64,000 nt of DNA from Balanoglossus misakiensis (taxonomy: Eukaryota > Animalia > Hemichordata). The notes under the pieces are model-generated. The model was given only the letters and a program-made list of their open reading frames with translations. It searched no databases and was not told where the DNA came from. Below are positions 6,444-31,619 of this stretch, piece after piece (the stretch's first letter is position 1; each line of letters opens with the position of its first letter). Location: NCBI GenBank assembly GCA_040954595.2, contig CM082580.2, positions 7,480,390-7,544,389 of the forward strand. Reading direction: 5' to 3'. The translations under genes were made by a program, and so were the position numbers.

Positions 6444-6475
6444 CAGACAGACAGACAGACAGACAGATAGATAGA
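6444..6475. repeat. (ACAG)n/(ATAG)n microsatellite
   Basis: acagacagacagacagacagacagatagatagat. Confidence 0.85.
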
Positions 6476-6542
6476 TGTTACTATTTAAGGTTTCACATCA
6501 CGACACCCCTGTCGTTGATATGCAAATTGAGTGGCGACCCAC

Positions 6543-6821
6543 CTTAGTATCAAAAGCTTCCATGTTTAACTTGTAGTCGTGCAGAATTCCGCGATTCTTA
6601 TTGACGTACTCCAGGGCCAAATCGATGGCCGGTTTCGATGCCCATGCTACGTCGCTTTCTGTGTTTCCCGCCGAGAACGGAAACAAAGCGGCAAAGTAAA
6701 GCTCCTGGGGTCTCGTCTCCTGGCCGAGGGCAACGGTGGAATCTGCTGGTAGACACTGAACGCATGGAAGCAGGAAAGCGACGGCCCAGACGATCCTCGC
6801 GATCTGTTCGGTCGGTATCAT
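6543..6821 (-). CDS. Variable first coding exon A1 of a GABA-B receptor-like protein (signal peptide + start of Venus flytrap lobe 1)
   Basis: ATG at 6821; MIPTEQIARIVWAVAFLLPCVQC hydrophobic leader; ELYFAALFPFSAGNTESDVAWASKPAIDLALEYVNKNRGILHDYKLNMEAFDTK aligns to exon 1 of the + strand gene; phase-0 donor AAG|GTGGGT at 6543/6542. Confidence 0.88.
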
Positions 6822-7139
6822 TTTCACCAGAGCGATGAGTGTAGACGGTTATGGGAGTAATGTCATTTGATGCTACCTGTGTCTGTGTGGGCAAAGATTA
6901 AAGAATTTCCTCGTAGTAGGTTTAGTCGTCCACTGGTTCCCTAGTCGATTTCTTGTGTTGGGTAAATCCTTTCACACAAGCACTAAATTTTTGAAGATAC
7001 TCTTTCTGTCGACAGTTCGAGTGGATAAGGCGTTGCGCTGAAAGGGACGACACGCTATACACAATACTGGAAATTTCGAACACTGCTTTAGACCGCCCCC
7101 TTTCTTTCGATAGGCGGGAGACCCAGCCTCGCACACTGT

Positions 7140-7390
7140 CTGCAGAGACGCGCCACTCGCCAGAGTATTAAACGTCAAACGTCTAAACACCCCGACGCTC
7201 TCTCGATCGATCCCGTTGTGTCGCGCAAAGATTTTCCACCTTTCCTTGGTAACGCTTCATACTAATACGTTGCAGTTGCCGACAAGTGCATGCGCATTGC
7301 ACTGAAACGGTTTTACGATACTTGAGAAGATCAGCATTGAGACCGAAGACGCCCTCAAACAGCGGCCATTTTCAAAAGATTAACTGTTTT
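7140..7390 (-). promoter_or_regulatory. Putative promoter block of exon A1
   Basis: Conserved with 25260-25490: GACAAGTGCATGCGCATT (7281-7298, NRF1-like GCATGCGC core) and GACGCCCTCAAAC (7348-7360), ~460 bp upstream of the ATG. Confidence 0.5.
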
Positions 7391-8532
7391 ATGCTGCGCG
7401 CGGTAAATATTACTAATTGGTACGGCAGACAATTTCAGGACGTCGTCTGCACGACCTAAAGGGAAATCAAAGAAATTTTATTGAACTGTCACAACGGCTA
7501 GCAGTTATAGATACTTGTATACGCACACGTGCAGTTTATTTCAATCCACATAACAGTTTATGAAGATCTCTCGGCGGATTTCCAAATAACAGCCAAATAT
7601 CTCCTAATTTTGATGGCCAGTCTACTAACTTTCATAAAAAATCCAGCGTTTTCGGTTTGCAGTCTCAATGTCGCCGTGTCTGTGTGGGAGTGAAGGTCAT
7701 CAAACGGTATTATTGGCCTGCAGTTGAAGTCTGCGCTATATACGCACACGTGATGCTACGCACGTTTTTGAGAAGAGCGAATACAAATATATCTGGATAC
7801 ATCCGAAACTGTTCCCCAAAGACTACCACTGGAATGCCGCGACCTCGGGAGCACTACAAATTAACGTATCCACAACAACATCACTGACAACCAAAAGCCG
7901 TTTTCATTTTGACGGATTGTTCGGGCCTGTCGTCTGCGCGCGCGATGTTGAATGTTATCCTGCCTCCGATCGATCACCGCTGGCGACATTTTCTGCATTT
8001 TATTCAAGCGGCATTTCTCGTCCACCGTCTTATCGCGTCACGTATTCTATCTCGGCCGGGTATTTCATCATGTTGTTCTCCCGATTGTTTATCCACCAGT
8101 CGATAAATCAGCACAGATGTTCTTCCTGCGACTCTAAGGAGGGTTTCCGCTTTGCCGCTCGGGTGTTCCGTTTACCTGGCAGACTACTAAAAGTACTAAT
8201 CATTCGAACTGCACATTTCCGTGATACGTGGTGCAGTGTTCAGAGTGGCCAAGGGAAGAGAGCATGCGCACACACTGGACACCAGGATGGCTGAACACTG
8301 ACTGACCAGATGTTATTCAAATAAATCATTTATTTATTTACCAACACACAGGTGTATTACCATCAGCGTTAAATAGAAGCAGCGGTGGTTTTCGTCACCG
8401 TGTTATCATTAAAGTTGGGGGGGGGGGGCACCCTTAAGCAATCCGTCTTGCCATTTTGCACAGTTACATACATGCCTTCACGCACGCGCGCTTTGTCATT
8501 TATCATATAGCCATACTGCTGCATATTGTAAG

Positions 8533-8630
8533 ACCACCACCACCACCACCACCACCACCACCACCACCACCACATCAACAACAACAACACAACAACAACC
8601 ACCGTCACCCCCATCATCATCACCACCACC
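8533..8630. repeat. (CCA)n/(CAA)n/(CAT)n trinucleotide microsatellite
   Basis: Long ccaccacca run followed by caa and cat repeats; accounts for the poly-W and poly-P ORFs. Confidence 0.95.
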
Positions 8631-11600
8631 TAAAACACCGCGGAGCGAACGTTAGACATGTGAATATATACCTATAGTGCTGCTGTCACAGCGAGACTCA
8701 TTTTATGCCATTGACTAGCGGTCGATGGAACTATTTTTCTTGGATCCCGGAGTGATGACATTAAAGGTCATTCGAAACAACGTCCCTGTTTAACCTTTTA
8801 AAACAAATTGTATCACAATACCTCTCTGAAACGCTTTCCCCCCTTTGCAACAGAAATTGTTTAACTGCCTGAATAACAAGCAGCTCTCCACCCTGCGGTT
8901 GGAACTTTGACATTTCCATTCGTGCAAAACATCACACAGTGGAAGATTGTGTGCGAAATGTCAGAACATTCAAAACAAGAATCCTATCAATTTTTTTGTC
9001 AAGCTGTAAAATGTGTATTGGTTCAATATCGCTTGCTGTATACTTCTTCCCCGGGTTAAGTGTCATGTCATTCCTTGCACGCTCGTATCAATTTTATAGA
9101 TTTCACAAAGGAAGCGCTTTTTTTATTTTACATTCCCGTCCAGAGTTGTAATAAGACATCTGACTGTATCATTATGACTGAGCCCTGGGGCTGTACATGG
9201 TTTGCGTATTTGGTGCTCTCGGATTGTGTTTGATCATAGGCGATGTTTTAGCGTTTCCGTGTGATGGCTGTTTGCGATGTCGAATTTAGCGCACGTAAGT
9301 CATAATAATCTTGAAACCGAATTCGAGATTGGGTTTTCTTGCTTTATGGTATTGGATACGTAACTTATAGTCAGGGAATTAATTAAATTCTTTGGTGATA
9401 TGCCACCGAAGTAAAATATATATCGGTTTGCCGTGTTATTGATGAATATTAAAACGAGAAACTGTAGCATTTGATATTTCAGATTTTGTAGTGCGCGTAT
9501 CGGATTATAGCTTCTATATCTAACTGATGTTGAACGTCACACGCCTGGACGTCTTGTCAGCAAGCTCTGTCAGTAGGTGTCTGTTTGACCCGAATTTTAA
9601 TCGTAATTGTTGCAAGACGTTATTGTCGTTTTCCTCAGTTAAATTTCGCACACAGCCCAGTCAGAAGAATTTAAATCGATGATGGTACGTCGTGTTTGCA
9701 ATGAGTGGTCCACCCTGTCGTCAAAGCCAATAAAACTTGAAGTGTTTGAATAATAAATGCTGGGTAAAAGACAGATATATTTGTTGGACACGTGTTTCCA
9801 TATAATTAGCACGTGTTGATGATGTAACTGACCTGGTGGGTATGCCAGATCAAATGGATCTGCATATTGCACGTGCCACACCTGTCGTTTATCATCGAAT
9901 GCACCAAACAGACTCGACGTTGCTGTTTTGGCAAGAGTAACACATCCAGGTGGGAAAACATTTGACGTCGAAAAACTGGATAGAAGACAAGACTGTTGTC
10001 AAAAATCTCGCGGTCACCATTTCTCTACACGCACTCAGAGTGTGTTAATATACATTATATGATGGTGATTGCCTCTGACATACACAACAATTTCCTATGA
10101 GAATGGAGGAAGGAGAATGAATGGTTATCTCGCAAAACCATCTATATAAACCCTGTGTATTGCTGGTACGGTGAAATTGGATTGCGGATACCGGAGTTGA
10201 TTAGCCCCCATGTCAACGTCCCCTGCGGTACATACACACATCAGTGGAGAACCTTGATCAGCGTTTTACGGAATGATGTACATGTACTCTCACTGTGCAC
10301 GTGTTATCTACATCAAATCTCATTGCAATCTCTCAACATTTCCCTGTTGCGGCATGAAGGAGGAAGAGAGCGTGGGAATTGGAAATAGACACACGGCAGG
10401 GAGCTGGAGACTGTGCTTTCTATATAACACTGATCAAAATGTTCCTCGCCGTTTTCCTGGGAAGATACATGTGAGATCATTGCGAGGGACGTTGATGAGG
10501 CAACTTATCAACTTCGGTGCGATGAAATCGTCATGATGTCAACAGGCACAGCCTTCCGCGCAAACATGTTGACCGTATGTTTAATGTACTTTTGATAACC
10601 TGCTTCAAAAAAATAACTGATCGAGAAACATCCACTTGTTTTAGTGGATGACACAAATCACCAATGAATGTAGGCTGGGTCCGACTGTTTTCGCTGTGGT
10701 TATTTGTACCATCTAAGTCATCTCCCCATCCTTGCCATAGAGGTCGACTGATGGATTTAAACTTGTGTGTTATACTTGTTGGATCTTTATGCCTGGTTCT
10801 AAGACTCCCCTTTTTGAGGTAGGGGGGGGGGGGGGGTTCTTCACCGCTTCAGACGCAAAGGCAAACAGGCACGTACGGCTACACTTCAGTACGATTGGTT
10901 TGTTTTTGCCGACAAAATCCTCTTTAAAACTCCCAGCGGTATTTTCTGCAGGTATTAACAAACAGATTGCAACTAGACGGACTCATTTGGTTTAACTTGC
11001 GACGCCTAAAGATAAGGGGGAAGTGGTCCCAAGGCGACATACGGGCCCGGAACATCAATTCAAATGATCTTGTTTTATAGGCACGCGGTGAAGAAAACGA
11101 TGGCACTAAATCAAGTCCACTTCAAACCTCTGAACATGCAACTTTAAAAATATGAGTGCGCCGGGAAAAGTCCTGTATACGATTATCATTAAATTGCAGG
11201 TCACTTTATAGACACTCAAGTTCTGGTTCTACATGCAGTGTTTATACACTGTGCAATTCTTTTCTTCGACTAGGAAACAATCCCCCAGATTTTTGACACT
11301 CGCGCTTCTCGTATACAGGTAGGTTAAAGAGGGAAATGCCATTTTCAGTAACCCATTCTGTTAGGGGGTCAAGATGCGCCCCTCAAGTGATTCAAAATTC
11401 ACACCTTTGGTGAAACCCCACTTTATAGAGAAGCTGTTGGGCAAAACATGGACGCTATTTTTTATATTTACAGAAATCACCTCGTGTGGGCGATTGCCAA
11501 CATTAAATTTCCTTCCCTAACTGAGCCTAAACCCATATAACAAAACCAGTAGACCGTGACTAATAATCAATGAAAAAAGAATACTTAGATATCACTATAT

Positions 11601-13329
11601 AGAAATGTTCAGCATGTTTGTTATCATCAACGCTACACAGAGTTTTGTGATTACAATGTATATCGACGAGTCATCTTCATTCGCGGAGTACATGACTGTA
11701 TGCTACTGCAGTCGTCAAAGACCCGTACCGCTCTAGGACAATCGTATACACAGGGGACAGGTACAGTCGAATATGTACCGGTCCGTGATGTCACACACGA
11801 TTTAACAACGTCGCTGCCGGGAAAACTGCATATCTCTGGAACAGATACGCATTCAAAAGCAACATAATCCACGAGGGGGTACATATACATAGCCGCGATT
11901 ATTTTGAAACGGCTTTTGTACGACTACATGCAGATTAGAGTCAGTTCCACGTGCATTCAGAAAACGGCCGCCGGAGAAGCTTTGCTCAAATGGAACGGTA
12001 ACATACAGCGCCCATCATCGAATTAATTTCATTTTCCTTTAGTGCACGATGACAATATGTATTGGAAAAGAACAAAAGTCAAATATCAATTCTGTGTTTG
12101 ACACGTTAAACAAGTCGGGAGTATAAACAGTCACATATACAGACAACGAGTATGTGCGTTAGAAAGAAATTGCGGTTGTAAAATAAATGTCAAATGAAAG
12201 TGCCAATACGTCGTAAAAACGGGAACGAGTCGATGGAATGAACAATGCCTCGACGATGGACGACAGCAATTAATTAACTCAGCGCAAGAGTAACACGGGC
12301 AACGATCGACGATATCGTTTTAATTCATTGCGGCGATACGCTGGACAAGTTTGTAAAAGGTCAATGTGGACATGAAAGTTTATGTGCTGGACAGATAGAT
12401 GGCGGGCCGGGGGGGGGGGGGGGTTAAAGGTGTACGACCGCCTATGCAAATTTAGCCACACTGACCATGGGAAGTTGAGATCTAACCAGCCAGTGATTGT
12501 ACGTCACCTCAGCCGCGCAAATAAAGTGCGAAACTGCATGTATACCTGGTCATATACGAAGACAAAGAAACGTCCCTTCAACCACATATAGGAATATGTA
12601 AATGAGAGGTGATTGAATTCCATTGACACCTATAGACAAGAAACAGATGGTGACAAAAGCGTTGTGTAATACTGAAAAAGAATTTTCGGACTAACTTTAT
12701 CAAGAAACACGTTAGACAATCATAGTTCTCTATACAGTGACGTTGTCTTGTTAGACGCCTTTTTGTGCCACAACAGAGTTTGCAATATTTAGGTTAATCG
12801 ATTAGGCATACAGTTCCGATAGTCGAAGTGTTGACATAGTATACACATTAGGGACACAGATCGATACAAATATATTCAGTCATTCGTCTTCGATTCATAA
12901 CAAAGTAACGCAACCGCCTGACGAATTTCCAACGTCAGGTCGCTGAAAGGTAACTCGTTCTCCAACCGATACGCCAACAGCTGCGCGAGGGAATTCCCGA
13001 GAAGGGGAAAATGGGCCAATTCACAATTCTGTTTCCAAGAAAATCGATAATTTAATATCGGCAAATTTGATAACAAGTGACACGCCACTAAACCCCAAGA
13101 CTTTACACGATGATAATCATTTCTGTTTTTAACACTCCTATAAGCGGCTTCTCTTCACCTGAACACGTGCGCTCTTGAGCAGGGGTCACGTGACAACACT
13201 CTTCAGGGCCCTTGTTCGGACTATTATATTCAACAACGAAAAAGCATTTTGAAAAACCAACATTCCCAAGCGCGAACCTGAACTTCCAGGAGATCCTTCA
13301 CCGAAAGTGTTGACTTACAGCCATCTACA

Positions 13330-13570
13330 ATATCTGCAATATCGATTCCAGTAATTGTATATTCGATTATCGTGACAGGAACCCAAAGGCAAAAAAACCT
13401 CTAGCCTATGAAAGCTATTAAAACTTTGCAATCTATCACCTTTATTAGGAACAGAATCCAGGGCCCGAAACTGTCCTTAACAGAAAATACGCTTCGAGCA
13501 ATCATCTCTCGTCTATAATGCAATGAATTTCGAAGGAGGCCGGTATTCCCATTACTCATGTGGACACTAT
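13330..13570. repeat. Conserved ~250 bp non-coding element, copy downstream of exon B1
   Basis: gtaattgtatattcg...gacaggaacccaaaggc...aacagaaaatacgcttcgagc...gtattcccattactc matches 27310-27570, 28410-28645 and 29730-29975. Confidence 0.6.
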
Positions 13571-14581
13571 AATTTGTAATATAAATACACGACTCCGATA
13601 ATACTCATAATGAAATATTTATCCCCGCGCTCAGCGTCCCTGCGCACAGCAAGGCCGAGGAAAGTTTCATTAAAAAGGTTCACTATTAACGGAAAATTAA
13701 TGTCTGCGTGTCAAAGAGACACAATGATAACGTGAGAAACAATTTTTGCCGAGAACAGCAAAATTAATAGACGTATACACATGATCTCAGCATGAATGTT
13801 ATGTACAATAAAACGGGCACAGGTACACATCGTGAGCTTTCGACCTAAAACGTTCTCAAATGAACACAGTTAAACCGCGGCTTCGTATTTTCTGTGAAAG
13901 TTAATAAAGAGAGTCATAACTCATCAGGTGGTGAGAATGGGACATTTACGGTTGTTTCCGATCGTTAACCCATTAATTGGCTTTCGTTTGAGTGTAATCA
14001 CTGACCCCCGTTAATTTCCCGGTAAATTTGACGCTATTCGTCTGTGTTTGAAAACCTCAAGGCCGAAGGACTTGTGTGAAAACTTACGATTCTCTCAAAG
14101 TTGCTAGGAAAAGAACCGCAATACATTTCTAAGGAACGAATGAATGGAAAGTGTTGTAACATCCACGACGACCACCAAACGTGGCTCACAATGTCGTTCA
14201 ACTTAAAATGAATCCTAAAGATATCAAATGAATATGTGGATATATGACTCGAGCAAAAGGAAGAAGATTTGAATGGCAACACAACAGCTCGGGCAGTCTG
14301 GGCATGATTACTTTTATAGAGTGGTCATTCCTATATACATAATCTTAAGTCATGGTTCTGTGTAAGCTGCTCTCTCATGTGGAAACGCGTCACTCAAATA
14401 CTCTGATGGTAAATATCTACCGCGTTATATAAAGGTATGACTCAGGTCATCGAAGTATGCGTTTCTAGTTTATAGCTAGAACGCCATAGGAATAGTTCTA
14501 ACAATGAGTTTACCCAAAATAAATTCTGCCTCGGTAGTTTCAGCAGAGCGTCAGTTTTCTTTAAATCTAAACCAGTCCTAC

Positions 14582-14884
14582 CTTAGTGTCGTAAACCTCC
14601 ATTTGCAGGCGATGGCGCGGCAAAATCTCCCTGTCACAATTAACAGCTCTCAGGGCTAAATCCACGGCCGGTTTAACGCCCCATGCTTTGTCCTTCTCGG
14701 CGTCGTGCGAAGCGAACGGAAAGAGGGCGGCGAAATGTAGAGAATTATCCGCTGCTTCAGATGGAGCTTCCACGGTCAGTATGTTACTGGACGCTGCGGC
14801 ACAAGCGAGGAAGAACGTGCAGTAGCACATTGAGCACGACATAAACCGCAGAGGAATCATATTCAGCGGAGGTTTCTTCCTCAT
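14582..14884 (-). CDS. Variable first coding exon B1 of a GABA-B receptor-like protein
   Basis: ATG at 14884 (other in-frame ATGs nearby and at 15022); Cys-rich hydrophobic leader MCYCTFFLACAAA; [53 protein letters not shown]; phase-0 donor AAG|GTAGGA at 14582/14581. Confidence 0.88.
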
Positions 14885-15049
14885 CGTGCGCGTGTTCAGG
14901 CCAAAGTCGTAGTCTATCTGGTTGATGACGTCAGGAATCTTTTCAACGTCAGTCGACCAAGGCGAGTGTATGTTATCACTACGAAGATTATGAATACTTA
15001 AAACTCTATTCGGGCATCTCATAAAAATCACCTGATTTTCCTTGATCGC

Positions 15050-16340
15050 GATTTTATGATGCAGTAGTTCTATCTGTGAGGTCTCGATAACCTATCAATA
15101 ATTATATCTAACGATGCGCTGGAGCACGCACGCCTATATGCCATTGAAACAGAATCTTACGACTTTTAAAAGCGATGACAGTCTATAAGCTTAAACCAAT
15201 TTGCGCGCGCAGTGATGTCAACAAGACGACGAGACTCAGAAGGTGTGTCTTGGGACACGGGCGCTGCGAAGGAACCGTCTTCCAGAATTACATGTACTTC
15301 CAGTGTCTTGCAAGGCTGTCTCCAGACACCGTCCGCTGCGCAGCCTTCGTCTGACAAGTGCGGTGGTGTATAGCATGTGCTTCAAGTGCCCCAGAGCTTG
15401 TGCGCGTAATACACATGTACATTGTGTCGCTCACGTTTCCATTAAACTACCTGACCTGATTTGAGCAGTAATCTGCCCGCATCACTGTTCCCGTGTACGA
15501 TAATTACGCAGTGGTCACATTTTCAAACCCCAATGAGCACGGTGTGTGTACTGAAAGCTATCGGTTTAATGTCAAAACGCTGTTTCTGTCTGACTCGTTT
15601 CATCGCTCGCCTCACCATCCCCGCCCTCCCGCGTCATTTCTGTGTTTAGTGTGCCCCACCCATGGCATCCCTGCAATTTGCTGCCCGAAATAGCCATTCC
15701 ATCGGGACTCACAACAATAATTCGGCGTTTCAGCAAAATTATACTTCTCTATCAATTTGTCACTTCGGGTTGGACTTGGCAGTGTTTCGGTCAAATGCGA
15801 TGTTGCGTGCCACTGTGGTTTCCTAAGCCTCCACTGAAAGACAGGATTTAGGTTATAACACAAGCCTGTATTAAAAACCATTGCGTGCCCGCTGGAAATG
15901 TCAAGAGGACGCCTGGTTTTGTGTGTGTGTGAAATACTGGCGCGGAATGTCTCACGCTATTAAATGATATCAATCAAGATCATATAGAAACTTCTCGGCG
16001 AATGAACCAAATTAAATCACAGTCACTCATCGGGCACCGCGGTTCGTAATATAAGGCGCTTACTTGCACAAACAGTCACCGTTGTCGCTGTTGCAAAGTC
16101 ACGTGGTCGAATAATAAAAAAAAAACCCACCCTGACAAACCATCCAGATAACGCGATAACGTGACGTGAATAGCCGAACGTGAAAACATGAGAGTTTCCA
16201 TCAAGTGTCTGGTGGATTTCTTAATCCGATTGTATGGTACGTTTCCCACTATAATAGAACGCTGTTTTCTGAATGCGAAATTGAAACGTGGTCCAAATTG
16301 AATTACCACCATTAAAATTAAACTCAACACCAAAGGCGGG
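15050..16340 (-). promoter_or_regulatory. Upstream/promoter region of exon B1, homologous to 31620-33040
   Basis: Collinear shared blocks: ccacccatgg...aatttgctgc...aaatagcca, tctcacgc...atcaatcaagatc, ccatcaagtgtctggtgg, gtccaaattgaatta. Confidence 0.5.
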
Positions 16341-19300
16341 CGAGTACTAATACTAGGGCGCGTCAAGGCTGTGTCGCCATTAAAGATTTGGTTTACATTC
16401 AGATATATTAAAGGAACTGTATTTTTATTAGTGAAGAGGTATAATTCGTGTTAAAATAACGTTTTATTATTTTGTTTCTGCAAGTTTTTTTTTTGACACT
16501 GTAAGATCAGTGTCCGGCTTCGGTATTGAAAACTCCGATATATCGATGCACGTGTTCGAATAGACCGCTGTTGGTGCAAGTTCACGAAAATCCGTCAATA
16601 TTTGAAATACTCCTGTACTTTGAAATTTCGGTCGGCGGTGTCAGTGTTGCAAACACCAATTGATAATTCTGCGCCACGTGGTCGCCAAGTAATAGCAGTT
16701 TTCGTTCTGAAGGAGAGTCGAATGACCCGATCTCTACATAAGGACTTTAATGCAAATCTCTGCGGAATATCATTCCTGTACACACGATGGCTATTGGTTC
16801 ATGCACAGAAGGTAATGCAAACATGTCCGTTGGAGGGAATGCGTCACCTTATAGGTCAACGCCACTAACAAGTTTATAGACACGAGATTCCCTATCAAAA
16901 TGCCTAAGAGCTTTATGAACTCACGGTGTCTGATCCAATTGATCAAAGTAGCATTTCGAACGCTGGGAGGTAATCTTTGCTCTTATAAACCCTCTTCACT
17001 GGCACATTAGCACATCCACATACGTTTCGGGCCAAGTCGTTTCGATTACGCTAATTATTTGTGAAGTGATGGTGTTAAATTGCCTGGCTATGGTGGCGCT
17101 AGCAGTGTTTGGAAATAAAAGGTTTGCTGATGAGTCGGTCGGTCGGTTAGTCAAGGAGGAATTCTTCTATAGTTCTATTTGAAGCTTCCGATGAATGTCC
17201 GACACAAATTTGATGAAACTTACTACTGTATATGCTTTTAATCTATCTAGAATACTGCGAATAGCGCCCTCCATTGAAATAGCACAGAACTGATAAACCA
17301 TGAATGGTTCGCCAACAGTCGCCCAACCATGCATTCAGTCACAGTAAGCTTACAACAATGATATTTCAATACAGCAAATGGCCGTATGCCTGCCGGGTCA
17401 TCTCTTTCGAGGAATGGGTGTAAGCTTGTAATGTTTTTACGCAATACACTAAAACCTTTGAATGCATTTATGTAATAGTCTGGAAAGTGGAAATGAGTGT
17501 CGATTTATGGTTTCATTCTGTTCGTATGACAATTCCATTAATTGTCACGACAGCTAGCACATTGAAACTGTTTTCAACGATAACACGAAGGTTAAATGTT
17601 ACTTTTTACCTCTGTATTTTACATACGCATGTATAGAACACATATTTCACTAGAAATCATGAGCTATCTGTTTAAAATGAAAAATGTGATCTTAATGTAC
17701 TATCGATATACGGCGTCATATTAAACTTTTCCCATGAATTGATCTCAATTGTGAAATCGAACCTCGGGCTACTAATCTACTGACTTTCATAGCCGATTAT
17801 TGGCGACGAACAGACAAACTCCATTGATTTTGAGATGGCGTTGAGTTTGTATTCAGAATATTCAGTGGTTGCTGAAAGATTTATTCGATATCGATAAGAT
17901 TTTCGCCAATTTTCGGCCGCGTTGTGCGAACGGATGGGGATACAGTCCATCAAAGCATAAAAATCTGTGCCATCAAAACGCATTTACCCGTCTCCATGGA
18001 TACCTGTATCGAACGGTATGCTCAAATACGCGTTTTATTATTTATAATACGAGTTTTAGACCGATATCACTACATCGGACAGGATGTGTTATCGGTGCCC
18101 CGATATGTAGAAGGCTCCCCCAGGGCAGCTGGAGAAGACAAATCGATCCAGCTCGTTCTCGGTTCACTTATCTCGACTCTCTTATCTAGCCTATTAAATC
18201 GTTCAGGCGCCAAATATACACTACTTTTCCTGTCCCCTTGCTGTTGAACACCGCATATGCTCCAAGAAATAACGTTAAGGGCTATTATTTTATAGTTAAT
18301 GCTTAAATTAAGGTAAAACGTCTCATAAGAATCGACAGGAAATTATAATTTTCGTAATTTTTAACTTCGTGTTGCAGGTCACGCAGGCTGCAATTTTCTG
18401 ATATCGATAAATCGGTGATGCAGCAAGACTATTTTTTGCAACTGGAATTCCGGGGTCAATTAGTAGCGCAATTAATATAAATCAAGATTTCCTACGTTTT
18501 GAAGTCTCAGCGTTTGTTTAAGGTATACATCCACAGGAAATGTTACCAAAAGAATGAAATATCGACGGAATTATTCATGAAATAACGACAATGACGTAAC
18601 TAAATGGCATTACCCATATTGGAATTTCAGACTGATTTATGATTCATGAATGGAATTATTCAAGATTCCCGAGTAATGCGTCCTTGTTTGATAAAATTAC
18701 ATTTCATAATTACTCATTGCCAACGGATCTCTGAGGAGTTATCACTTTGCATTAAAACCATGGCAACCTAGACTATCTAAGAGCAGGGGATAAAATGTTT
18801 CATATTATTGTCAGGTAATTAGCTTCCTCACTTGTTTAAAATCGCACATTAAATTATTTATATTAATAATTTAGTGAAATTTATACCCATCACGTCGCTG
18901 TCATAGATCTTCAGGTGCATTAAATGTAACGGGGGTTCCAATAATTACATTAGCTATTTCCAGGATTTTAATAATATTTTGAAGTATGAAAAAATGACAT
19001 GTTGATGGAAACGGTCACCGTTCATTATTTCCAATGCACGGTACTATAAATTTGGCGACAGAATATATAGTGCGCCATCCGTCACACCTAGCTGGGAAGC
19101 GGAGGAGGGGGGGGGGGGGGGTAATACATGCATATCACATGATAAATTTAGTATAGCTTTCATTGAAATTTCGATCTGCTCGAAGCGTTCCTGAAATCGT
19201 GACTTTCGGTTATCACGTCCACGACTGAAAAATGTTGTAAAGTCAGTGACATTTATTTCTAAAGACCTCGAGAGTCGCGTTCAATATTAATAGCCGCGGA

Positions 19301-21680: not shown

Positions 21681-23238
21681 CTCAAGTGCTGAACGTGTAA
21701 ATGTCTCATTAAACACACTTGGGATGTTGGAAATGTAGAGTTATACAGGGTCACGCTAAACTATAATTCTTGTTCGAAGTTCCCTCACGATGCAATGCGA
21801 GCGAAACGTTGGTAAGAAGCAAAAGGCCCTTTTTACTTGCACGACACGATAATCTCATCTGCGTGGTATGTACACGTAGCGTAAAGAAAACGCTTTAATC
21901 TGCGCACGTGTGCTTCCTCGGGCTGAAAACACCATTATGTCATTCTCAGCGGGTCTCCAGATTTTCATCAAAACGAAGATATTCTGATCGCATAGCAGAC
22001 AAAGGGGAGCACGTTCGGAGACGACACGAATGGAGAGCATGAGATGACTTGAGATGTTTGACACGCTCTTGTCACATTGGTTTATACAATCTGAAAATGA
22101 TTTTGGTTTCATTATGTAACGCCCTCCGCCATTCAATCTGATTTCGTGAAATTATCAACTGTGTTACACCGGCGCGTCGCCGTCACCAGCGAATGATTGC
22201 TTGCACACATAAGTACAGTAAAATGAACGACATCCCAGCGGCAACAAGGGCCCTTCCACATCAAGGGTGGCGCGGCTGGTGTCATTCATTAAGAAAAGAT
22301 CCCCGGGTTGTTCCAGCGTCAAATTAATCTATCCCCTCCGTCCACTTTCTCTAATACCGTCTCCTTTATTGGAACATTCGCTTATCGTTAACCTTGGCTC
22401 CCAAAATGCCGATAGCAGAAATAATATGTGCTTTCTTGTTAAATGTTTTCGAAACTCAGCTCAGTACCAGAAACTCGCACAAAGCTAGCAAATATACGAA
22501 AAGTATTGAGAATATTTATAAAGACAAAAACACCAATCGCGGGCTAGTCTAACACCGAACATGACATTGTGCGTTTAATTGGAGTAGATAGATGGTGGAA
22601 GCTTATTATCTTTTGTGAAATGCGTCTTATAACGAATTGCAATACGTCACCGTGTTTGGGTGATCAATTATGTGTCACAGGACATCGTTTAGGACTATTT
22701 GTCAGATGAATTACGGTGGTAGGTGGCAACCGTAACTGAACCCCTGATCAATAATACAAGATAAATAGCATAAAATATTTTTTTCAGGCGTCTTCATATG
22801 TTCGATTTTTGTACTTTTTCTCCAGCTGTACCATCTGAACAAGAATTGTAATATCAAGCATGCTTCGGGCATTTTTGTGTGTGTGTGTCGGAGGATAGTT
22901 TAGGTCGCCTATATGAAATACTGTTTGTACATCTTGCAAATATCCGCGTCCTTGCGTTTACGAGTTTACCCCATTTTACCAGTAAAGCACGTTTTTATTT
23001 CATACTCCTCGAGCGATACCGCTGTAACAAACTGTGTATAGGTTAAGCGTTTATGAGTCAGTTCACCAGTTACGGATGAACGTCAATTAATTTTGATCAA
23101 ACCGTCAATATATGAGCTATAAATGAGCAATTTTCAAATCAAACACACAGCTGCTTATAATAAATAACGTGTCAGCAGTGAGAGTTTCCACATACATCAC
23201 CGAGGACTTTCCCTCATCGTTCTCTCAGCTGACGTTAA

Positions 23239-23608
23239 CGTATAGTACGCGCCTCGAGGGACATACTTTTAGAAAAAAATAAAGTCCTCCAAACCTTTCG
23301 AATCGTTGCTATAATATTAAAGTGTATGAGGATGTCTTTTTGACAACAAAGAAGAAAACAGAGTGTCCACCGTCTTGTTTTCATAAAAAATCACTACTTT
23401 CAATTTTCTCCGTAGAGTTAACACATAGATCATTGGCGGCCATTTTGAATTTCAAATTTGAGACAATCTTGCCCTCTCATTCAAAAATATGCACGGTGAC
23501 CCCCAATTTTCATTCTCAATTTTAATAGAACATAATCTTAAGTTGCCTGGACCGGTAAAAAGTAGGAGAAAAAAGTTTAAGACTTTAGTTTTCGAGGCAC
23601 GTACTGCC
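23239..23608. mobile_element. TTAA-target MITE (~370 bp)
   Basis: TTAA at 23235-23238 and 23609-23612; imperfect TIRs agtacgcgcctcga / tcgaggcacgtact; the paralogous region has a single empty TTAA at 6072-6075. Confidence 0.8.
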
Positions 23609-24656
23609 TTAAAGGCGCTGAACATTCGCTGAAGTAAGCGAGAACATTAACCTCCTTCTGGTAAAATATGAATCACAAAACAACATGTTGAAATTTGATT
23701 TCTGAATCACGAATGTAAAATTGTCCCGATGCTTTTATCATTCACGCATGATATTTCACACAAAGCCTTAGAGCGTGTATCTTTCGAGGTCTATTAACGT
23801 AAAGTACAATTTAGAAATGCAATTCTATCTTACAAATTACAATTTCAATTTTTACATGCGTTCTTCAAGTCCAACTAAAATTCTGGCTGGGTTGAGTTAC
23901 TGTGGCATCAGATATCCTTTTTACGTGTTACGCTATACGCGCCAAGAGTAGAGTTTCACGGATCATTAGTGTTGGTACATTTAATACTCTCATTCGTTTC
24001 TACCATAAGGTCAAAAAGAATGAGTAAGCATTACATATGAATCTATGACAATGTGCAAAAGCAGTTCTAGGGCAAAATGCCTAAGTTGACCTAGCCGATG
24101 ATACATATATTTGTTTGAGATCATATTCTGTCGCACAAAGCTACACACTATGCGAATCTTAGCGCAGGCTTCTTTGACAATTCCTCGCCCATTGAGCGTT
24201 GTTAGTATAGGTTAATGGAAAAACAGGGTTTATATAGTCGATGACACTATCTCTCCGAGTGACTTATAATGGGAAGGATTTGGACTAAACATAGCCTTTT
24301 TGTGCTGTTTAGGATTTAATTCCATGGTATTAACACTACTGAGCCCCGTTGGTCAAGATATAACAATGGTGCGTGCATCGGTGAGCAAATTACTGTTACA
24401 TGTATTAGTGTACTAGAATGAACGCGTGCGTTCACATCAGATAGACATTCCGCTAGTTGCCCTTAGTCCCTCGCCACACATGCATAACACATCAACTGGT
24501 GGTTCCACTAGACTAGAATAAAATTGTACGATTCAATTTTGTTGGACATTTCAAAAATGCTCAGCGCCCGAACTCCTCTGTCCGCCTTAAGGCGACAGGC
24601 TAACAAAAGACCACATGAAGGTTGTCTTGCATAATACGTAACGAATGACAACCCAC

Positions 24657-24983
24657 CTTCGTATCAAAAGCTTCCATGTTTAACTTGTAGTCTCGCAGAA
24701 CTCCGCGATTCTTATTGACGTACTCCAGGGCCAAATCGATGGCCGGTTTCGATGCCCATGCAACGTCACTTTCTGCATTTCCCGCCGAGAACGGAAACAA
24801 AGCCGCAAAGTGAAGCTCTCGACGAGGTTTCAAATTCCGTTCGCGGGCAATGGTGGAATCTTCCGACAGACACTGCACGCGAAACAAGAAGATGACGGCG
24901 CAGATTAACCTGGGCAGCATTCCCGTCGGTTTCATAACCATCGCCGTGCGGTAATCAAGATATTTTCCAATTATTTCTCGCAT
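24657..24983 (-). CDS. Variable first coding exon A2 of a GABA-B receptor-like protein
   Basis: ATG at 24983 (alternative starts at 24941/24935); leader MLPRLICAVIFLFRVQC; [54 protein letters not shown]; phase-0 donor AAG|GTGGGT at 24657/24656. Confidence 0.88.
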
Positions 24984-25259
24984 GTGCTACCTGTCCTGGG
25001 CTGACTAAGACTAAGCAACTCCTTTCACCGAGCGCTTTCGAGCGGGAATCTCGTGATGGATGTATCCGTTCACACAATCATGAAATATAGAAAACGCTCT
25101 TGTCTTCGGCACGTCTAGTTGATAAAGTTTTGTGATGACAAAAACGACAGGCAGCTACAAATTCGTGACTGGTGGTTTCTTTTAAATGTTGGAAATCCCA
25201 AACCCCGCCTTTAAAATCTTCTTACTTCCTGGAACCAAACTTAAACCAGCTTGTCTATG

Positions 25260-25490
25260 GATGGGAGACGCGTCGTTCGCCAGCGTCACGTCTAACATCG
25301 TAACATCGCCAAGAGTCTGCAGAAAGATGTTCGCGGATTTCCCTGGAACCGCTGCGTCCTAAAGGTAAATTTGCTGACAAGTGCATGCGCATTACACTCG
25401 ATCACAACGTTGATATCTTGGGAGGATACAGCAATTGGACGAAGACGACGCCCTCAAACGGCGGATGCTCTTGTAAGATTAATATTAAGT
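25260..25490 (-). promoter_or_regulatory. Putative promoter block of exon A2
   Basis: GACAAGTGCATGCGCATT at 25376-25393 and GACGCCCTCAAAC at 25447-25459, identical to the A1 motifs. Confidence 0.5.
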
Positions 25491-27309
25491 TATCATAATG
25501 ACTTGCCTTGGGACTGTACAGGTTTTTCGTATTAATGATCTCAAACTGCGTTTTATAGCAGATGTGTGAATTGAGGCTGCAGGGCTTCAACGTTAAATTT
25601 CGTGCGCGTTAGTCATTATCATAATGACTAGGTACTCAAGTCGAAATTGGCTTTCCTGTCTATGACATTGGCTGTGCAATTGGAAGATGAAGCTGCTTGA
25701 TTCGTAAAATGTTGAACTTCGAATCGGATGAATATTCTGCAGCTGTTTCAGAAAACCTGACGTAAACCCTAATGTCTTTTTCTTTCAAATAGATTTCTAT
25801 ATACTGAATCATAAATTTGGCGCAAATATTTTAAGACAAAAGTCGTAACATTTACTATGGATGTTCAACGTCTGATATTTTAATGGACCTATAAAACGGT
25901 AAAAACTCTATTATACTTATAAACCAAACTGCTAAAATCTTAGGCTTTTAATGAATTGCGGCTGTAGAATTCCGCATATTCAGATTAATGACTGTGTTTA
26001 GTGATATTTCCAGTAATAAGAGCACTGCTTCAATGCTTGTAGTCTACTTAAGTTAATAAAACGGCACTGAAACACACATCATAAATGGAAATGCTACAAA
26101 AATATCGATCATTTGACGATAATACGTTTGCTAGTAAAACGTCGCACATTTGCAGAATGGCCCTAAATGCCAGATAATAACAGTAATGCGACGATCGTAA
26201 TCATTACCTTTAGTAATAGCCTTACACATAAAAGTTCGCATTTAGTGTTACAATGAAAGTACACACGAACTATCAATAATGGACATCTCTTCAGCATCAT
26301 CGGGAAATCAGGTACAAAGTTTACATATCATGATTTTTCTGCGTACAACGTACAGCTATAGCATTGAAACCAGCGTATCATGGCAGAGGGGACCCAATCC
26401 ACGTGGTTACACAATGCGAAACCTCGTGGTAATAACCTTTACAAATTGAAATAGAACAATTGACAAATAGTATGTTACTTTTCACTTAGTTTTATGGAGA
26501 TTGACAAAACTATTGAGCCACATGTCTTTGGCACAAGGTACATCTTTCTTGTGATTGTCGTTGGTCAAAATACCGGCCCGATGCCAGTGCGGCTTCTATA
26601 AAATGGCCGGCCCTGATTGGCGATATTGAGTCGTCATGATTTGTGTTGCCCGGTTGTGTACACCTGGTATAAGCTCATCAACGGGACTCTCAGGCAAATA
26701 AAGATGGATATGTTATCAGAACAAGCAAAACTCATGAAAGGGTTGCCGCAACCGTCTTTGAATGGGCCTTCCACCAGCTACGTATTATATACGAAGTTCT
26801 GTGAACGTTTAGGAGATAACCAGCCGCCGGGGAAGGTCCGCTAAAACGGGATTTATCGTGTTCTGTTCGCTGCAGCTTGGGCGATGCGTGAGCCATTTTT
26901 ATTCTTTACCAAAAGGAATCGGTTCGCCGTGAGTCAGAGATGTCTCATTTACTGCATCTACGGGAGACCTGCGCGTCGCAGTTGAATTTGACTATGGACA
27001 CAGAAGTTCCATCAACTTCACCACGTCTTTTCGTGTGGATAATAAGTCAAAATGGTTAATTGTTTGCAGATAAAATGTACGAGAATATTGCTGTCTGTTC
27101 TCAACACCTGCGTTCATCATCGCAGAATTGCAGGGGGTCCACCCGTTCCCTTCTTGCCAACAGAAAACCACTCCAACCTCTCTTGTGTTCAACAACGAGA
27201 ACGGCCTTGCGACCTGAAGACGTGCTGAGATTCACAAACCACGCCGTAAACACGACGAGCTTCTTTACTCTTCATATTTGGCAATCATTCAAAATCAACA
27301 AGAAATTGT

Positions 27310-29975
27310 GAATATTGCAAACCCACACAATGTCTCCATTCTCGTAATTGCGGGCTTTTTTTCCTTTGACAAGAACCCCAAGGCTGAAGACGGTCCCATT
27401 AAAGATAAGTACACTCGGAGAACTGTCGCGTCTTATAAAGAACACCATCTATTCACGAAGAGTATTTTAACAGAAAATATCCTTGAAGCATACATCTCAT
27501 CTCTACAGAAATGCATTTTAAAAGCAGAATCACTTTTCAGAGGCAGACTCAGTATTCCCATTACTCTGATAAATGATATAACGCGTAATAGAAATTCACG
27601 GCACCTCTTAGGCCGGAATATCTAAAAGTAATAGTGAAATATTTATCTCTACGAACAGGAGACCGAGAGGCAAGACTCTTTTAAACATTACATAATGTAC
27701 AGCAAGTAAACGTCTCAGTGTGAAAACCGTATAATAATATGTTAAACAATGTTGGGCATGTGACTGTTATAGATAGCAAAATCTAGCAAAATTTGGCATG
27801 AATGTTTATGTCTGCACATACGCTGTATAGAGTTTAGTCTGTACAGGTATGCATCTTGACTTCGGTTTATATATACTAGTAGCTCCGCGTCTGTCGCTTT
27901 ACAATAAACATCTCCTAACAGCCATTGCATAAACGTACCCCTAACAAAGTCAATCAGGGCATGATCGTCCTTTAACGTGAAACGTAATAAGAGGATTGAT
28001 ACTTTTATAGTGAAAATTCATTCGTTTGCGGTTGGTTCAGGTCGTGAAACTATAAATTGGTCTCGTTAGAGGGAGAAGTCGCTGCTACTCGTTATTTTCC
28101 GTCCCGAAATAAGTGACATCATGGAGATCATATTAGTTACGGAAATAGCTTGGAGCAAGCTACCAGTGCTAGAAGTCGTGCGTGACGGTACTGGTTTCCG
28201 GTGTTATTTAAGGAAAGGTTTACCAACAAGCAACTGCAAATGACACGGATAGGTTCATACATAGATACATACATACATTTTCACAGCTGATGACAAAATG
28301 CCAATTTTGGCCAGCCGACTTACTCATGTTGACAAAGTCTTGTGATGCCCGAGCATACAGTCCAATTACAATCAGAAAATCTTCTTCAAAAAGGTGAAGA
28401 TGGTAAACGGCCAATTGTTGTAATTGCATGGCTACTTTCTCGTAAAAAGACCCAAGGCTGGAAACGGACCATTAAGAATAATTATCCTTTGAAAGCTTTC
28501 GAGTTTTCACGAGAACGCAATCTGGCTGCCGAAAGGAATATACCCTTGAGGAGCAGGACTCGTCCTTACTATATAAGTATAAAACTAAGAACACATTTCA
28601 AAAGAGAACTGGGTTTTCTCCGTATTGCCATTACTCCGGTAAACAGTACACGTCACAGAACATGAATGAATATCTCAAGAGTTTGGATGCTGGGTTAATT
28701 TGAACACTCCAGAATTCATGACATATTAACATCTCTGCATGACAGTATAATTACTAGTGACATTTTACATATATATGTTATGCCCATAGACATAGTGCAC
28801 GCGTAGGTTGCGTCTAGGTAACATCTACTATATTGACTATAACTGTTCCCTATCTGTCGCGTACGGAAAACCATACCCGTTACCAATGCAAAATTCGGCG
28901 AATTCAGGCAACTTGCTATAAGCTAATACTGAATCACATTGATTCACGGGCAAAAGTAAAGTACACCCATCATCATGCAAGGCAGAGCATGAGAATAATG
29001 ATCACCACCATGTAAGAGATATTAACAAACATGATATTCACATTGCACAACGTTATAAAATCCAAATTATTTTCCTTTTATGACTGTAATTGTGCATTGC
29101 AATAAGCAATATACCGGAGCCGACGATCAACGGCATCAATTTAATATCGTGCAGCTGCATGCAGCATTGGCAATCGATGATATCATTTTCATGCAGCGCC
29201 AGGTGATGGATGTCAACATAAAACAAGGCCGCATTCATGCATGACAAATAAGGGGGGAAATTGTCTTACAAATCACAAAGAAATGGAATTTTTAAAAACA
29301 AATGACCATGATATGTCATAAAAAAGGAAATGGCGCGCCCATGTCACATCGTAAAATATAACTTGGTTAAGGTCGTTATTTTACATTTTAGTTGTGTAAC
29401 AAATGCATAATGAGGTCGTACTGACACATTTTATGGAATTTCAGTAAAGAATAACTCATGTTAACAAATCTGCTTTTCTACCCGACACACTACCAAAGTA
29501 CCATTCGAAGTAGTGATTTCTTTCCTGTCTTGAGCACTATCATTATCAGTGAAAAGTACAAGGAAATGTATTCTAGGGTCCGTTCAACGGTATCCATTAA
29601 CGTAAAATTGAAATTGATATTGAAAACCGGTTTGATTCTTGAGCTACGTTGAAACCGTCACGAGCTTCCTGTTTACCCAGTCGAAGTATGATCATCCAAA
29701 ATCTACTAATCTATTAATCCACAAAGATTAACTATCGCAAATCTCGGATCCATTCTTGTAATTGCATACTCGCCCTCGACAAGAACCCCCAAGGCCGAAA
29801 ACAGCCATTAAAGATATTCGTAATAAAAAGCTGCCGCGTTCTTACAAAGAACACAATCTAGAAACCGAAAGAGTTTAGCAGAAAATACCCTTGGGGAGCG
29901 TATCTCGACGGTAATACGATGCGTTTTCGAGACAGACCCGTTAGTCTACGTACTATATACCCATTACTCTGATCA
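27310..29975. repeat. Three dispersed direct copies of a ~250 bp element (27310-27570, 28410-28645, 29730-29975)
   Basis: gacaagaaccccaaggctgaagacggtcccattaaagata / aaagacccaaggctggaaacggaccattaagaata / gacaagaacccccaaggccgaaaacagccattaaagata; each ends near ccattactc. Confidence 0.75.
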
Positions 29976-31143
29976 ACGCTAAACGTTGCAATATACATAT
30001 TCGACATATTCAAGTCTGTGTAAAAACTATAATTACAGGTGTAACACTGTCGTGGGGAGTGTGGAGAATTCTGATGCATGTTTTGGGTATATATGCGCTT
30101 ATGCCTGGCCCATTAAATGAATATACACCAACAGAGGTTAATAGCGTATCGTATCATTAGCCTGCTTATCACAAGAGTTTTAACGCAATTCTCAGTCGAG
30201 ACTGAGCTGATTGCCGCCGCGTCGTTGCCAGTGGTGTGTAGTTTCTCACTGTTAATGGCAGAGGGCGTTCTACAAGTCCGGGTCTCTGAGAATCCCCACA
30301 ATGCTTTATTGCAAATGTAATAATCGTGGACAGGTTGATTCAATTCGTTTAGATTTCACTTAGGCTTTCAGCAGCGTAACCCATCCGCTGTTACTTCACA
30401 AATTGACTTGCGTTCTCAGGTGGTTTAGGTAACACTTGCGTAAGAGAGTTCAATTTTACCTTCAATGGATACGATCACCTCTGGCGACCTGCAAAAGGTC
30501 TCAGCTTGGGCCTATTTGGTACAGTCACGCAAATGGCCTTAAATAGTAATATGTAAGGTTCGCGTTCAATGCCCCTCAGTTTAATTAGAGCGTTACCTGT
30601 CAATCAGATTGTGAGTACTTACATAGGGTTTGATTAATTAATGTGGCTAATTGGTGCAATTCAGGACAACGTGCTACAAAAATTTCTCTATCCTTGCGCC
30701 TTCATAATATGCAAGCGCGGGCCAACCAGACAAGCGATGTGGAAATGATAATATCAATTGGACCTCTGGGTAAATGTGTACACGGATGGGGCTGTTTCCA
30801 AAGGTGCTTAACACTAATGGCAGCCAAACAGCTTAGAGAGCTTGGAAACATGATTACCTTTCGAGGGCGTACTTGTTTCTCCCACCTACACCATTTACCT
30901 CTGTGATTCTGTGAAAGCAACTCTCTCATGCGAAAACATGTCACTTGAAATGCTTAGATTGCATCAGACAAATACACACTTGCATACAGGTAAATGCTAC
31001 AGTACCCATAGCGGCATATAGTATACACCTCAAGTTTCCATCTTGGGTATTCTCGCCGTACCGTTAAATATTGACATAATGCACTTGTACCAAATAGATT
31101 TCTGCACCACTAATTCACGAGAGCCTTATATACAAAAACCCAC

Positions 31144-31425
31144 CTTAGTGTCGTAAACGTCCATTTGCAGACGGTGGTGCGGCAGGAGATGTCTGCCACC
31201 ATTAACAGCTTTCAGGGCTAAGTCCACCGCTGGTTTTACGCCCCAAGCTTTGTCCGTCTCGGCGTCTTGCGAAGTTAAAGGGAAAAGGGCCGCAAAATTA
31301 AGAGCGGGTTCCAATTCTCCGACTGTGTCTCCGACGGTTATTACGTTTGACGCAGTTGCGGCAGAACATACGTGTAACAGCAGGTAGAAGCACATTGCAC
31401 GTGGCGCGAACCGCACAGAAAACAT
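31144..31425 (-). CDS. Variable first coding exon B2 of a GABA-B receptor-like protein
   Basis: ATG at 31425; leader MCFYLLLHVCSAATA; LNFAALFPLTSQDAETDKAWGVKPAVDLALKAVNGGRHLLPHHRLQMDVYDTK; phase-0 donor AAG|GTGGGT at 31144/31143. Confidence 0.88.
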
Positions 31426-31619
31426 TTCCAGAAGGTGTTTCTCTCCTATCGTTCTCTATACACCCAAGTTCAAAGCCTAACTCTTCGATGACAGCCAAGT
31501 ATCTTTCATTCAGTGGTGAACGAAAGGGTGTAGTGTGCTTTGCTCGACGAGTTGCTCTTAAATTCTTCTGCCAAGTGTGGACATCAGGGGATCTCGTCAC
31601 AGTGTCCCCGAAGAATGAG

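What the first reader, a model, noticed from the sequence alone, without database searches (positions are those of the whole stretch)
6543..31425. Array of four stand-alone variable first exons for a GABA-B-type receptor (protocadherin/UGT1-like cassette locus)
Seen: four - strand exons (6543-6821, 14582-14884, 24657-24983, 31144-31425), each with an ATG, a different signal peptide, the core L(H/Y/N)FAALFP...AW..KPA(I/V)DLAL..VN...L.M..(F/Y)DTK and a GT donor at the same phase-0 position as exon 1 of the + strand receptor. I found no exon 2-18 homolog between them over 25 kb, so they are not whole-gene duplicates. Frames and donors are intact while flanks are heavily diverged and hit by transposons. 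Known: clustered protocadherins and UGT1A splice alternative promoter-bearing first exons onto shared constant exons; vertebrate GABBR1 has only the 1a/1b promoter choice. Inference: a promoter-choice system generating several N-terminally distinct GABA-B-like receptors from one constant region. I do not know of such an array described for class C GPCRs.
Basis: partly seen in the sequence, partly recalled or inferred. Interest (0 to 1): 0.92.

Follow-up and report, generated by a model that had tools for sequence, protein, structure and literature searches.

The report
Swappable first exons, acorn-worm GABA-B2
Four intact copies of the first coding exon of a GABA-B receptor subunit 2 gene lie in a row in an acorn-worm-type genome, and they are likely alternative starts for one shared receptor body just outside the window, so one gene would make four receptors that differ at the front of the sensing domain, a layout that public gene models also show in another acorn worm and a sea cucumber.

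Summary
Confirmed: four intact minus-strand exon-1 copies with phase-0 donors and no exon 2-18 homolog among them. They are two old types duplicated once as a ~17 kb unit (A, B, A', B'), with coding cores under purifying selection (dN/dS about 0.2). The gene is GABBR2-type, from an acorn worm. In Ptychodera flava RefSeq, one gene carries the A and B orthologs on an identical body. That body is a different paralog from the plus-strand gene, so the shared exons probably lie left of the window. A second P. flava paralog has two first exons, and sea cucumber GABBR2 has three that probably arose separately; amphioxus (0 of 3 clusters) and protostomes (0 of 10) show one. The exon encodes a signal peptide plus strand-loop-helix-strand of Venus-flytrap lobe 1, including the loop that holds GB1's pocket residue W65, but not the known interface residues. 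Splicing and separate promoters in this species are untested. The layout is a known kind (UGT1, GCNT2, sDscam). I found no paper on it in a class C GPCR. The scan had not noted this locus, but had noted similar layouts in other genes.

The parts
6543..6821 (-). Variable first coding exon A (93 aa: predicted signal peptide plus start of VFT lobe 1); nearest to the inferred constant exons
   Evidence: groups with P. flava gene X exon A; hydrophobic 11-mer 2.45
14582..14884 (-). Variable first coding exon B (101 aa; the ATG at 14860 aligns with the ATG of B')
   Evidence: (groups with P. flava gene X exon B)
24657..24983 (-). Variable first coding exon A' (109 aa; the ATG at 24935 aligns with the ATG of A)
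31144..31425 (-). Variable first coding exon B' (94 aa); most 5' cassette, head to head with the plus gene 7.3 kb away
7227..7365 (-). Conserved non-coding island 0.4-0.55 kb upstream of A (partner 25323-25464); candidate promoter, holds a short motif recalled as NRF1-like
   Evidence: function untested
25323..25464 (-). Conserved non-coding island upstream of A'
15919..16378 (-). Conserved non-coding island 1.0-1.5 kb upstream of B (partner 32618-33086); candidate promoter, enhancer or 5' UTR exon
   Evidence: (E 7e-47)
32618..33086 (-). Conserved non-coding island upstream of B'
5886..16378 (.). Alignable span of copy 1 of the duplicated A+B unit; copy 2 is 23037-33086
   Evidence: collinear blocks at offsets 16.3-18.1 kb
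38774..58511 (+). Complete neighbouring GABBR2 paralog ('W'): 18 exons, 939 aa, one first exon, 9.5 kb intron 1; not the body the cassettes are inferred to use
   Evidence: 17 of 17 introns GT-AG, open frame; 83% to P. flava XP_070566244, 67% to gene X

Best explanation
The four minus-strand exons are intact, selected copies of the first coding exon of an acorn-worm GABBR2 paralog, and they likely act as alternative starts, each probably from its own promoter, spliced onto one shared exon 2-to-end body that likely lies left of the window, so that one gene would make up to four GB2 subunits. Shown here: anatomy, the A-B-A'-B' history, purifying selection, orthology to the two first exons that P. 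flava RefSeq places on one body, and the part of the fold that is swapped (signal peptide, then strand 39-47, loop 48-54, helix 55-75, strand 83-91 in the AlphaFold model of the P. flava B isoform). Inferred: transcription from a given promoter makes that cassette the cap-proximal exon, its phase-0 donor joins the common exon 2, and the downstream cassettes are removed as intron. The main likely purpose is regulatory: different cells or stages use different promoters and signal peptides. A second likely effect is modest tuning of the GB1-GB2 heterodimer through the cleft-side loop of GB2 lobe 1. The known interface residues (GB2 K112, Y118, D119), the 7TM region and the C-terminal tail stay constant.
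For:: five exon-1 copies and only one set of later exons in the window. P. flava gene X has an A-type and a B-type exon 1 on one body; window A/A' group with P. flava A (99/94), B/B' with P. flava B (100/99), plus exon 1 with P. flava gene W (96/94). X and W are separate paralog clades, each with P. flava, Glandiceps and Saccoglossus members. Glandiceps X and W lie on a sequence of the same length (29,028,597 bp), which fits X next to W here; 53-codon core dN/dS is 0.22 for A/A' (Fisher P 0.011) and 0.18 for B/B' (P 5e-5); changes fall on both copies (1+1 and 3+3 polarised). At half the pairwise dS per lineage (about 0.3), ATG, frame and donor survive neutrally in only about 2.5% of simulations per exon, counting substitutions only; same layout in P. 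flava gene Y (2 exons) and Apostichopus japonicus (3 exons with cores 40-49% identical; bodies identical over 600 of 600 residues where lengths match). and PMC8807474 (passages): structural mapping; conserved non-coding islands upstream of each type.
Against: The constant exons are not in the window; 6.5 kb without exon 2 follow cassette A, though intron 1 of the paralog is 9.5 kb. The P. flava and sea-cucumber evidence is predicted RefSeq models whose read support I could not see. P. flava has two exons, not four, so use of both A and A' and of both B and B' rests on selection alone. If the low A/A' core dS (0.17) is the true age, neutral survival is 25-28% per exon, and the A/A' bootstrap interval for pN/pS reaches 0.93. 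The N-terminal signal region has dN/dS near 0.75. An acceptor-like site lies 61 nt upstream of A's ATG (score 9.8, the 90th percentile of best scores in random 430-nt stretches), with a weaker one at the matching place in A', so non-coding leader exons are possible. No upstream sequence shared between A and B types was found.
Confidence: 0.78

Rival explanations
1. Only one A and one B are used. The second A+B unit is a partial 5' duplication that has recently fallen silent, or is kept looking intact by gene conversion, so the gene makes two isoforms as in P. flava.
For: P. flava models show two first exons. The A/A' core has much lower synonymous divergence than the A/A' leader and the B/B' exon (6 of 36 sites against 42 of 97, Fisher P 0.0045), as conversion would give.
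Against: B and B' differ at dS 0.63 yet have dN 0.12, with changes on both lineages. All four keep ATG, hydrophobic leader, frame and donor, and both exonic gaps in the A/A' alignment are 3 nt. Upstream islands are conserved in both copies.
Confidence: 0.1
2. The cassettes are mutually exclusive second exons chosen by splicing after a shared non-coding leader, not by separate promoters.
For: Acceptor-like site at matching positions upstream of A and A'. Pairs of RefSeq accessions share one protein in P. flava gene Y and A. japonicus, which implies variation in untranslated parts.
Against: The best upstream acceptor scores for B and B' (5.5 and 4.9) are below the median for random stretches (6.3). 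Each type has its own conserved upstream island. N-terminal homologous swaps are described as arising from alternative promoters (PMC8373072, passages).
Confidence: 0.07
3. The minus-strand cassettes are joined to exon 2 of the plus-strand gene by trans-splicing or by DNA inversion.
For: Same phase-0 junction, and head-to-head position.
Against: The orthologous A and B exons sit on the gene X body in P. flava, and the plus gene is W, which has its own exon 1. In P. flava, X and W lie on sequences of different length (44.0 and 45.6 Mb). No inverted repeat pair of 40 nt or more flanks the cassettes.
Confidence: 0.02
4. All four are orphan relics of deleted paralogs, or an assembly artefact that placed two haplotypes in tandem.
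For: No body is visible in the window, and acorn worms have several GB2 paralogs.
Against: dN/dS about 0.2 and conservation with P. flava (70-74% identity). The two units differ far more than alleles should: 10 of 17 one-kb blocks barely or do not align.
Confidence: 0.03

Closest known systems
Vertebrate variable-first-exon clusters UGT1A, GCNT2, UGT2A and PCDHA/PCDHG (PMC1885805, passages)
   Same: Tandem homologous first exons in one frame, each with a signal sequence, over shared constant exons. Lineage-specific growth, including duplication of a two-exon unit as described for zebrafish Ugt1 a1-a4.
   Different: Only 2-4 cassettes. The exon holds about 55 mature residues of one lobe rather than the whole recognition domain. 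No upstream sequence shared by all cassettes was found. No evidence on stochastic choice.
Human tandem-exon-duplication N-terminal substitutions, e.g. GCNT2 and KCNAB1 with three 5' exons (PMC8373072, passages)
   Same: Small sets of homologous 5' coding exons selected by alternative promoters. This is the closest match in size and kind.
   Different: 'GABBR' and 'GPCR' occur 0 times in that paper's main text; its supplementary gene list was not read.
Chelicerate sDscam 5' cassettes (PMC4835542, passages)
   Same: Invertebrate cell-surface receptor with promoter-bearing 5' cassettes, expanded per lineage.
   Different: Cassettes of 2-4 exons encoding whole Ig domains, many copies, adhesion role.
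GABA-B receptor GB1a/GB1b (PMC8163086, passages)
   Same: N-terminal isoforms of a GABA-B subunit; the 1a/1b difference affects trafficking.
   Different: GB1a/1b add or omit sushi domains and leave the VFT unchanged. Here homologous VFT segments are swapped, and in the GB2 subunit.
RefSeq models of P. flava (XP_070573334-337; XP_070566245-247) and A. japonicus (XP_071853303-309)
   Same: The same architecture; the first set is the ortholog.
   Different: Unremarked predicted isoforms with 2, 2 and 3 exons; the window has 4.

Membership tests
Variable-first-exon / constant-exon loci (UGT1, GCNT2, PCDH, sDscam type) | Tandem homologous first coding exons on one strand with same-phase donors | tested here: met
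Variable-first-exon / constant-exon loci | No copy of the constant exons between the variable exons | tested here: met
   with a positive control
Variable-first-exon / constant-exon loci | Each variable exon is spliced to the same constant exons | tested here: inconclusive
   Met in the predicted models of the P. flava ortholog. Not observed in this species; the body lies outside the window.
Variable-first-exon / constant-exon loci | Variable exons are maintained by selection | tested here: met
   dN/dS 0.22 and 0.18
Variable-first-exon / constant-exon loci | Each variable exon has its own promoter | not testable with these tools
   Conserved upstream islands only; possible acceptor upstream of A
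UGT1/PCDH clusters in the narrow sense | The variable exon encodes the whole N-terminal recognition domain | tested here: not met
   It encodes a signal peptide plus two strands and one helix of lobe 1
UGT1/PCDH clusters in the narrow sense | One conserved motif upstream of all variable exons | tested here: inconclusive
   blastn (word 7) finds A-B similarity only in the coding core; no dedicated motif finder was run
Clustered protocadherins | Stochastic single-cell promoter choice | not testable with these tools
   none
GABBR2 (GB2 subunit) | VFT plus 7TM, closer to GB2 than to GB1 | tested here: met
   P. flava ortholog: E 9e-230 to GB2 against 5e-162 to GB1; fold matches GB2 at 44-47% identity, GB1 at 36-37%; tree. 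Tested on the ortholog and the plus gene, not on the unseen body.
GABBR2 (GB2 subunit) | Lacks the GB1 GABA-binding residue set | tested here: met
   The His of GB1's RTHP motif is Val or Ile in all acorn-worm rows; the Ser of the GCS motif is kept in most. Equating these motifs with H170 and S130 is recalled. The W65 and E349 columns of that alignment were misaligned and not used.
GABBR2 (GB2 subunit) | Obligate heterodimer with GB1, couples to G protein | not tested
   Known for human (PMC8163086); no experiment or complex prediction here

The most novel reading that the evidence does not exclude
Acorn worms and sea cucumbers have repeatedly and separately multiplied the one exon that lines the cleft of the GB2 Venus flytrap because in these animals GB2 is a ligand-sensing subunit. 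Promoter choice would then swap the pocket loop and give different cells GABA-B receptors that respond to different co-ligands. Four of the six fixed A-versus-B differences fall in residues 51-61, the loop and helix start that align with GB1's W65 loop.
Probability: 0.15. Interest if true: 0.88.

Novelty: new member of a known kind. Interest (0 to 1): 0.62.

Why it matters
GABA has a single metabotropic receptor type in mammals, and no ligand binding has been observed in the GB2 flytrap (PMC3920572 and PMC7411975, passages). Acorn worms have expanded GB2 into four paralog clades and then, in at least two of them, multiplied exon 1. A sea cucumber probably did the same separately. Repeated duplication and retention of this one exon, among close relatives of chordates, supplies natural variants that differ only in the signal peptide and the cleft-side part of GB2 lobe 1. 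They allow a direct test of what that part of GB2 does. It also adds a class C GPCR to the variable-first-exon genes and flags a gene-model pitfall: the Saccoglossus gene X model lacks exon 1 altogether.

Tried and rejected
No whole genome is held for this window, so the DNA to the left could not be read. The one run search, on 24500-31600, gave 'no RNA holder listed'; this is no evidence either way, and no reads could be laid. A search for short relatives of exon 1 (5 hits) and an HMMER scan of 1.84 billion representatives (176 hits; I read 8 of them) gave mostly exon-1 fragments from other animals and no junction-spanning acorn-worm sequence among those read. My first idea, that the variable exon carries the GB1-GB2 interface, was rejected: GB2 K112, Y118 and D119 (PMC8807474, passages) align to the first helix of exon 2. 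A weak tblastn hit at 3087-3293 (E 0.017-0.064, plus strand) was set aside as chance hydrophobic similarity. The Saccoglossus pair (XP_006813973.1 against XP_077863660.1) is counted as weak: two annotation releases, the older start has no hydrophobic leader (0.45), and it groups with another paralog's exon. CpG content did not mark promoters (o/e 1.04-1.22 upstream against 1.09 overall). The constant-region tree is the quick version, because the careful search did not finish. Ten literature searches listed no paper on duplicated first exons in GABBR2 or on acorn-worm GB2 paralogs; the library lacks most subscription journals. I read passages of PMC7411975 (plus section 5), PMC8163086, PMC8807474, PMC8373072, PMC4835542, PMC1885805, PMC3920572, bioRxiv 10.1101/2020.04.15.004267 and 10.64898/2026.09.08.749565. 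No supplements were read; the gene list of PMC8373072 and the closed bioRxiv supplements could bear on the novelty claim.
Full report
Observation. The four minus-strand exons are present at 6543-6821, 14582-14884, 24657-24983 and 31144-31425. Each is open from ATG to DTK and followed by GT at phase 0, and each begins with a hydrophobic stretch (best 11-mer 1.85-2.76; this is a hydropathy check, not a signal-peptide predictor). The plus-strand gene assembles into 18 exons and 939 aa with 17 of 17 GT-AG introns, and its exon 1 ends at the same position. An HMM of exon-1 cores finds exactly five copies. HMMs of exons 2 and 3 find only the plus gene, and the constant regions of 12 relatives find nothing in 1-48600 better than E 0.017, while the positive control recovers the plus gene's exons. 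The cassettes therefore stand alone within the window.

History. The order is A, B, A', B'. Collinear blocks from 5886-16378 match 23037-33086 at offsets of 16.3-18.1 kb, so a two-exon unit was duplicated once. Much of the unit no longer aligns: 10 of 17 one-kb blocks score at or near shuffles. What survives best is the exons and non-coding islands upstream of each type. In the 53-codon core, dN/dS is 0.22 for A/A' (P 0.011) and 0.18 for B/B' (P 5e-5); the leaders are near 0.75. Polarised changes fall on both copies. Neutral survival of ATG, frame and donor at about 0.3 substitutions per site is about 2.5% per exon, but 25-28% if the low A/A' core dS is used. The A/A' core has fewer synonymous differences than the rest (P 0.0045), which suggests gene conversion or extra constraint.

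Identity. All five hits of the exon-1 profile among longer proteins are acorn-worm GABBR2-like proteins. The plus gene is 83% identical to P. flava XP_070566244 and 73% to a Glandiceps protein, so the source is an acorn worm nearer P. flava, but not that species. The family is GB2 by sequence and by fold. Acorn-worm GB2 forms one clade (SH-aLRT 100) of four subclades, here called X, Y, Z and W; the plus gene is W (quick tree).

Decisive comparison. P. flava gene X has four RefSeq models. XP_070573334/335 start with an A-type exon, XP_070573336/337 with a B-type exon, and all are identical from Cys-Glu-Met onward apart from one optional Ala. The window's A and A' group with P. flava A (99/94), B and B' with P. 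flava B (100/99), and the plus exon 1 with P. flava W (96/94). The cassettes thus belong to gene X, whose body is inferred to lie left of the window. Glandiceps X and W share a 29.03 Mb sequence, which fits this linkage, whereas P. flava X and W are on sequences of 44.0 and 45.6 Mb. These are predicted models. That such isoform models usually need transcript support is recalled, and I could not see the reads.

Spread. Of 25 clusters looked up, 4 hold more than one homologous exon 1 on the same body: P. flava X (2 exons), P. flava Y (2), S. kowalevskii Y (2, across annotation releases, weak) and A. japonicus GABBR2 (3, cores 40-49% identical). That is 4 of 12 ambulacrarian clusters, 0 of 3 amphioxus and 0 of 10 protostome clusters. 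Several clusters hold a single model or models lacking exon 1, so absences are weak. All 18 acorn-worm exon-1 rows form one group apart from echinoderm rows (99/95). Forcing the B exons together with one sea-cucumber exon is rejected (p-AU 0.019; one such pairing tested), and A plus B as one clade is not rejected (p-AU 0.45). Separate origins are the simplest reading, though 55 columns resolve little and conversion could hide an older shared layout.

What is swapped. In the AlphaFold model of the P. flava B isoform (mean pLDDT 73; 88-96 over residues 41-90), exon 1 gives a leader helix, strand 39-47, loop 48-54, helix 55-75 and strand 83-91. This is human GB2 57-107 and GB1b 48-102. The loop aligns with the GB1b loop holding W65, whose mutation abolishes agonist activation (PMC7411975, passages). 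The GB2 lobe-1 interface residues K112, Y118 and D119 (PMC8807474, passages) align to exon 2 and are constant. Across the six A and B cores the two loops vary most (1 of 7 positions invariant in each, against 5 of 7 in the first strand), and 4 of the 6 fixed A-versus-B differences lie in residues 51-61 (the interval was chosen after seeing the data). The GB1 His of the RTHP motif is absent, so GABA binding by this subunit is not expected.

Mechanism. Most likely each cassette has its own promoter, the cap-proximal cassette splices to the common exon 2, and cells choose among up to four GB2 front ends. Shown: anatomy, selection, orthology, structural position. Inferred: splicing in this species, four promoters, and any functional difference. 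I put about 0.9 on alternative starts of one gene X body, and 0.78 on the full reading with all four used from separate promoters. A mainly regulatory role with modest tuning is likelier than ligand switching (0.15). An acceptor-like site upstream of A leaves room for non-coding leader exons.

Comparison and verdict. It works like UGT1, GCNT2, KCNAB1 and sDscam, and meets the testable general features of that layout. It fails the narrow UGT1/PCDH feature of a whole variable domain, and nothing here bears on stochastic choice. Ten searches listed no paper describing it for GABBR2 or another class C GPCR. The scan's own notes hold nothing on this sequence or place but several unchecked reports of the same layout in other genes, so the layout itself is not rare. 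Verdict: real, a new member of a known kind, notable for its recurrence in GB2 of ambulacrarians. Interest 0.62.

Noticed in passing
window 46540-47156: A 617-bp near-perfect palindrome in intron 1 of the plus gene (arms of 124 nt at 100% and 135 nt at 90%), MITE-like; probably a recent insertion.
   Followed up: no
window 13341-13746, 27335-27753, 29748-30005: A diverged element in three copies, one of them off the duplication diagonal; unclassified.
   Followed up: no
window 6543-6704 and 24657-24818: The A/A' cores are 93% identical over 176 nt including the donor, with few synonymous changes; possible gene conversion.
   Followed up: partly
window near 7296, 25391 and 8270, minus strand: A 9-mer recalled as NRF1-like occurs three times in the window, twice in the conserved islands upstream of A and A'.
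   Followed up: partly
window near 6882 and 24995, minus strand: Acceptor-like sites at matching positions just upstream of the A and A' start codons; a non-coding leader exon is possible.
   Followed up: partly
proteins P0001-P0016, P0059: Acorn worms have four GABBR2 paralog clades, whereas the echinoderm, amphioxus and protostome rows in the tree fall outside that clade; not found in the literature searches.
   Followed up: partly
P0111-P0116, P0018: Apostichopus japonicus GABBR2 RefSeq models carry three different homologous first exons on one body.
   Followed up: yes
P0144: An unnamed 745-aa GABA-B-like protein begins with two near-identical exon-1 copies back to back, as if a gene predictor had joined duplicated first exons in another animal.
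   Followed up: no
P0013, P0004: The Saccoglossus gene X model lacks exon 1 and the Glandiceps gene X model lacks a hydrophobic leader; both loci may hide unannotated cassettes.
   Followed up: no
P0001 and P0002 against P0003 and P0004: Genes X and W lie on sequences of different length in P. flava but the same length in Glandiceps, and appear adjacent here; a lineage-specific move is possible.
   Followed up: no
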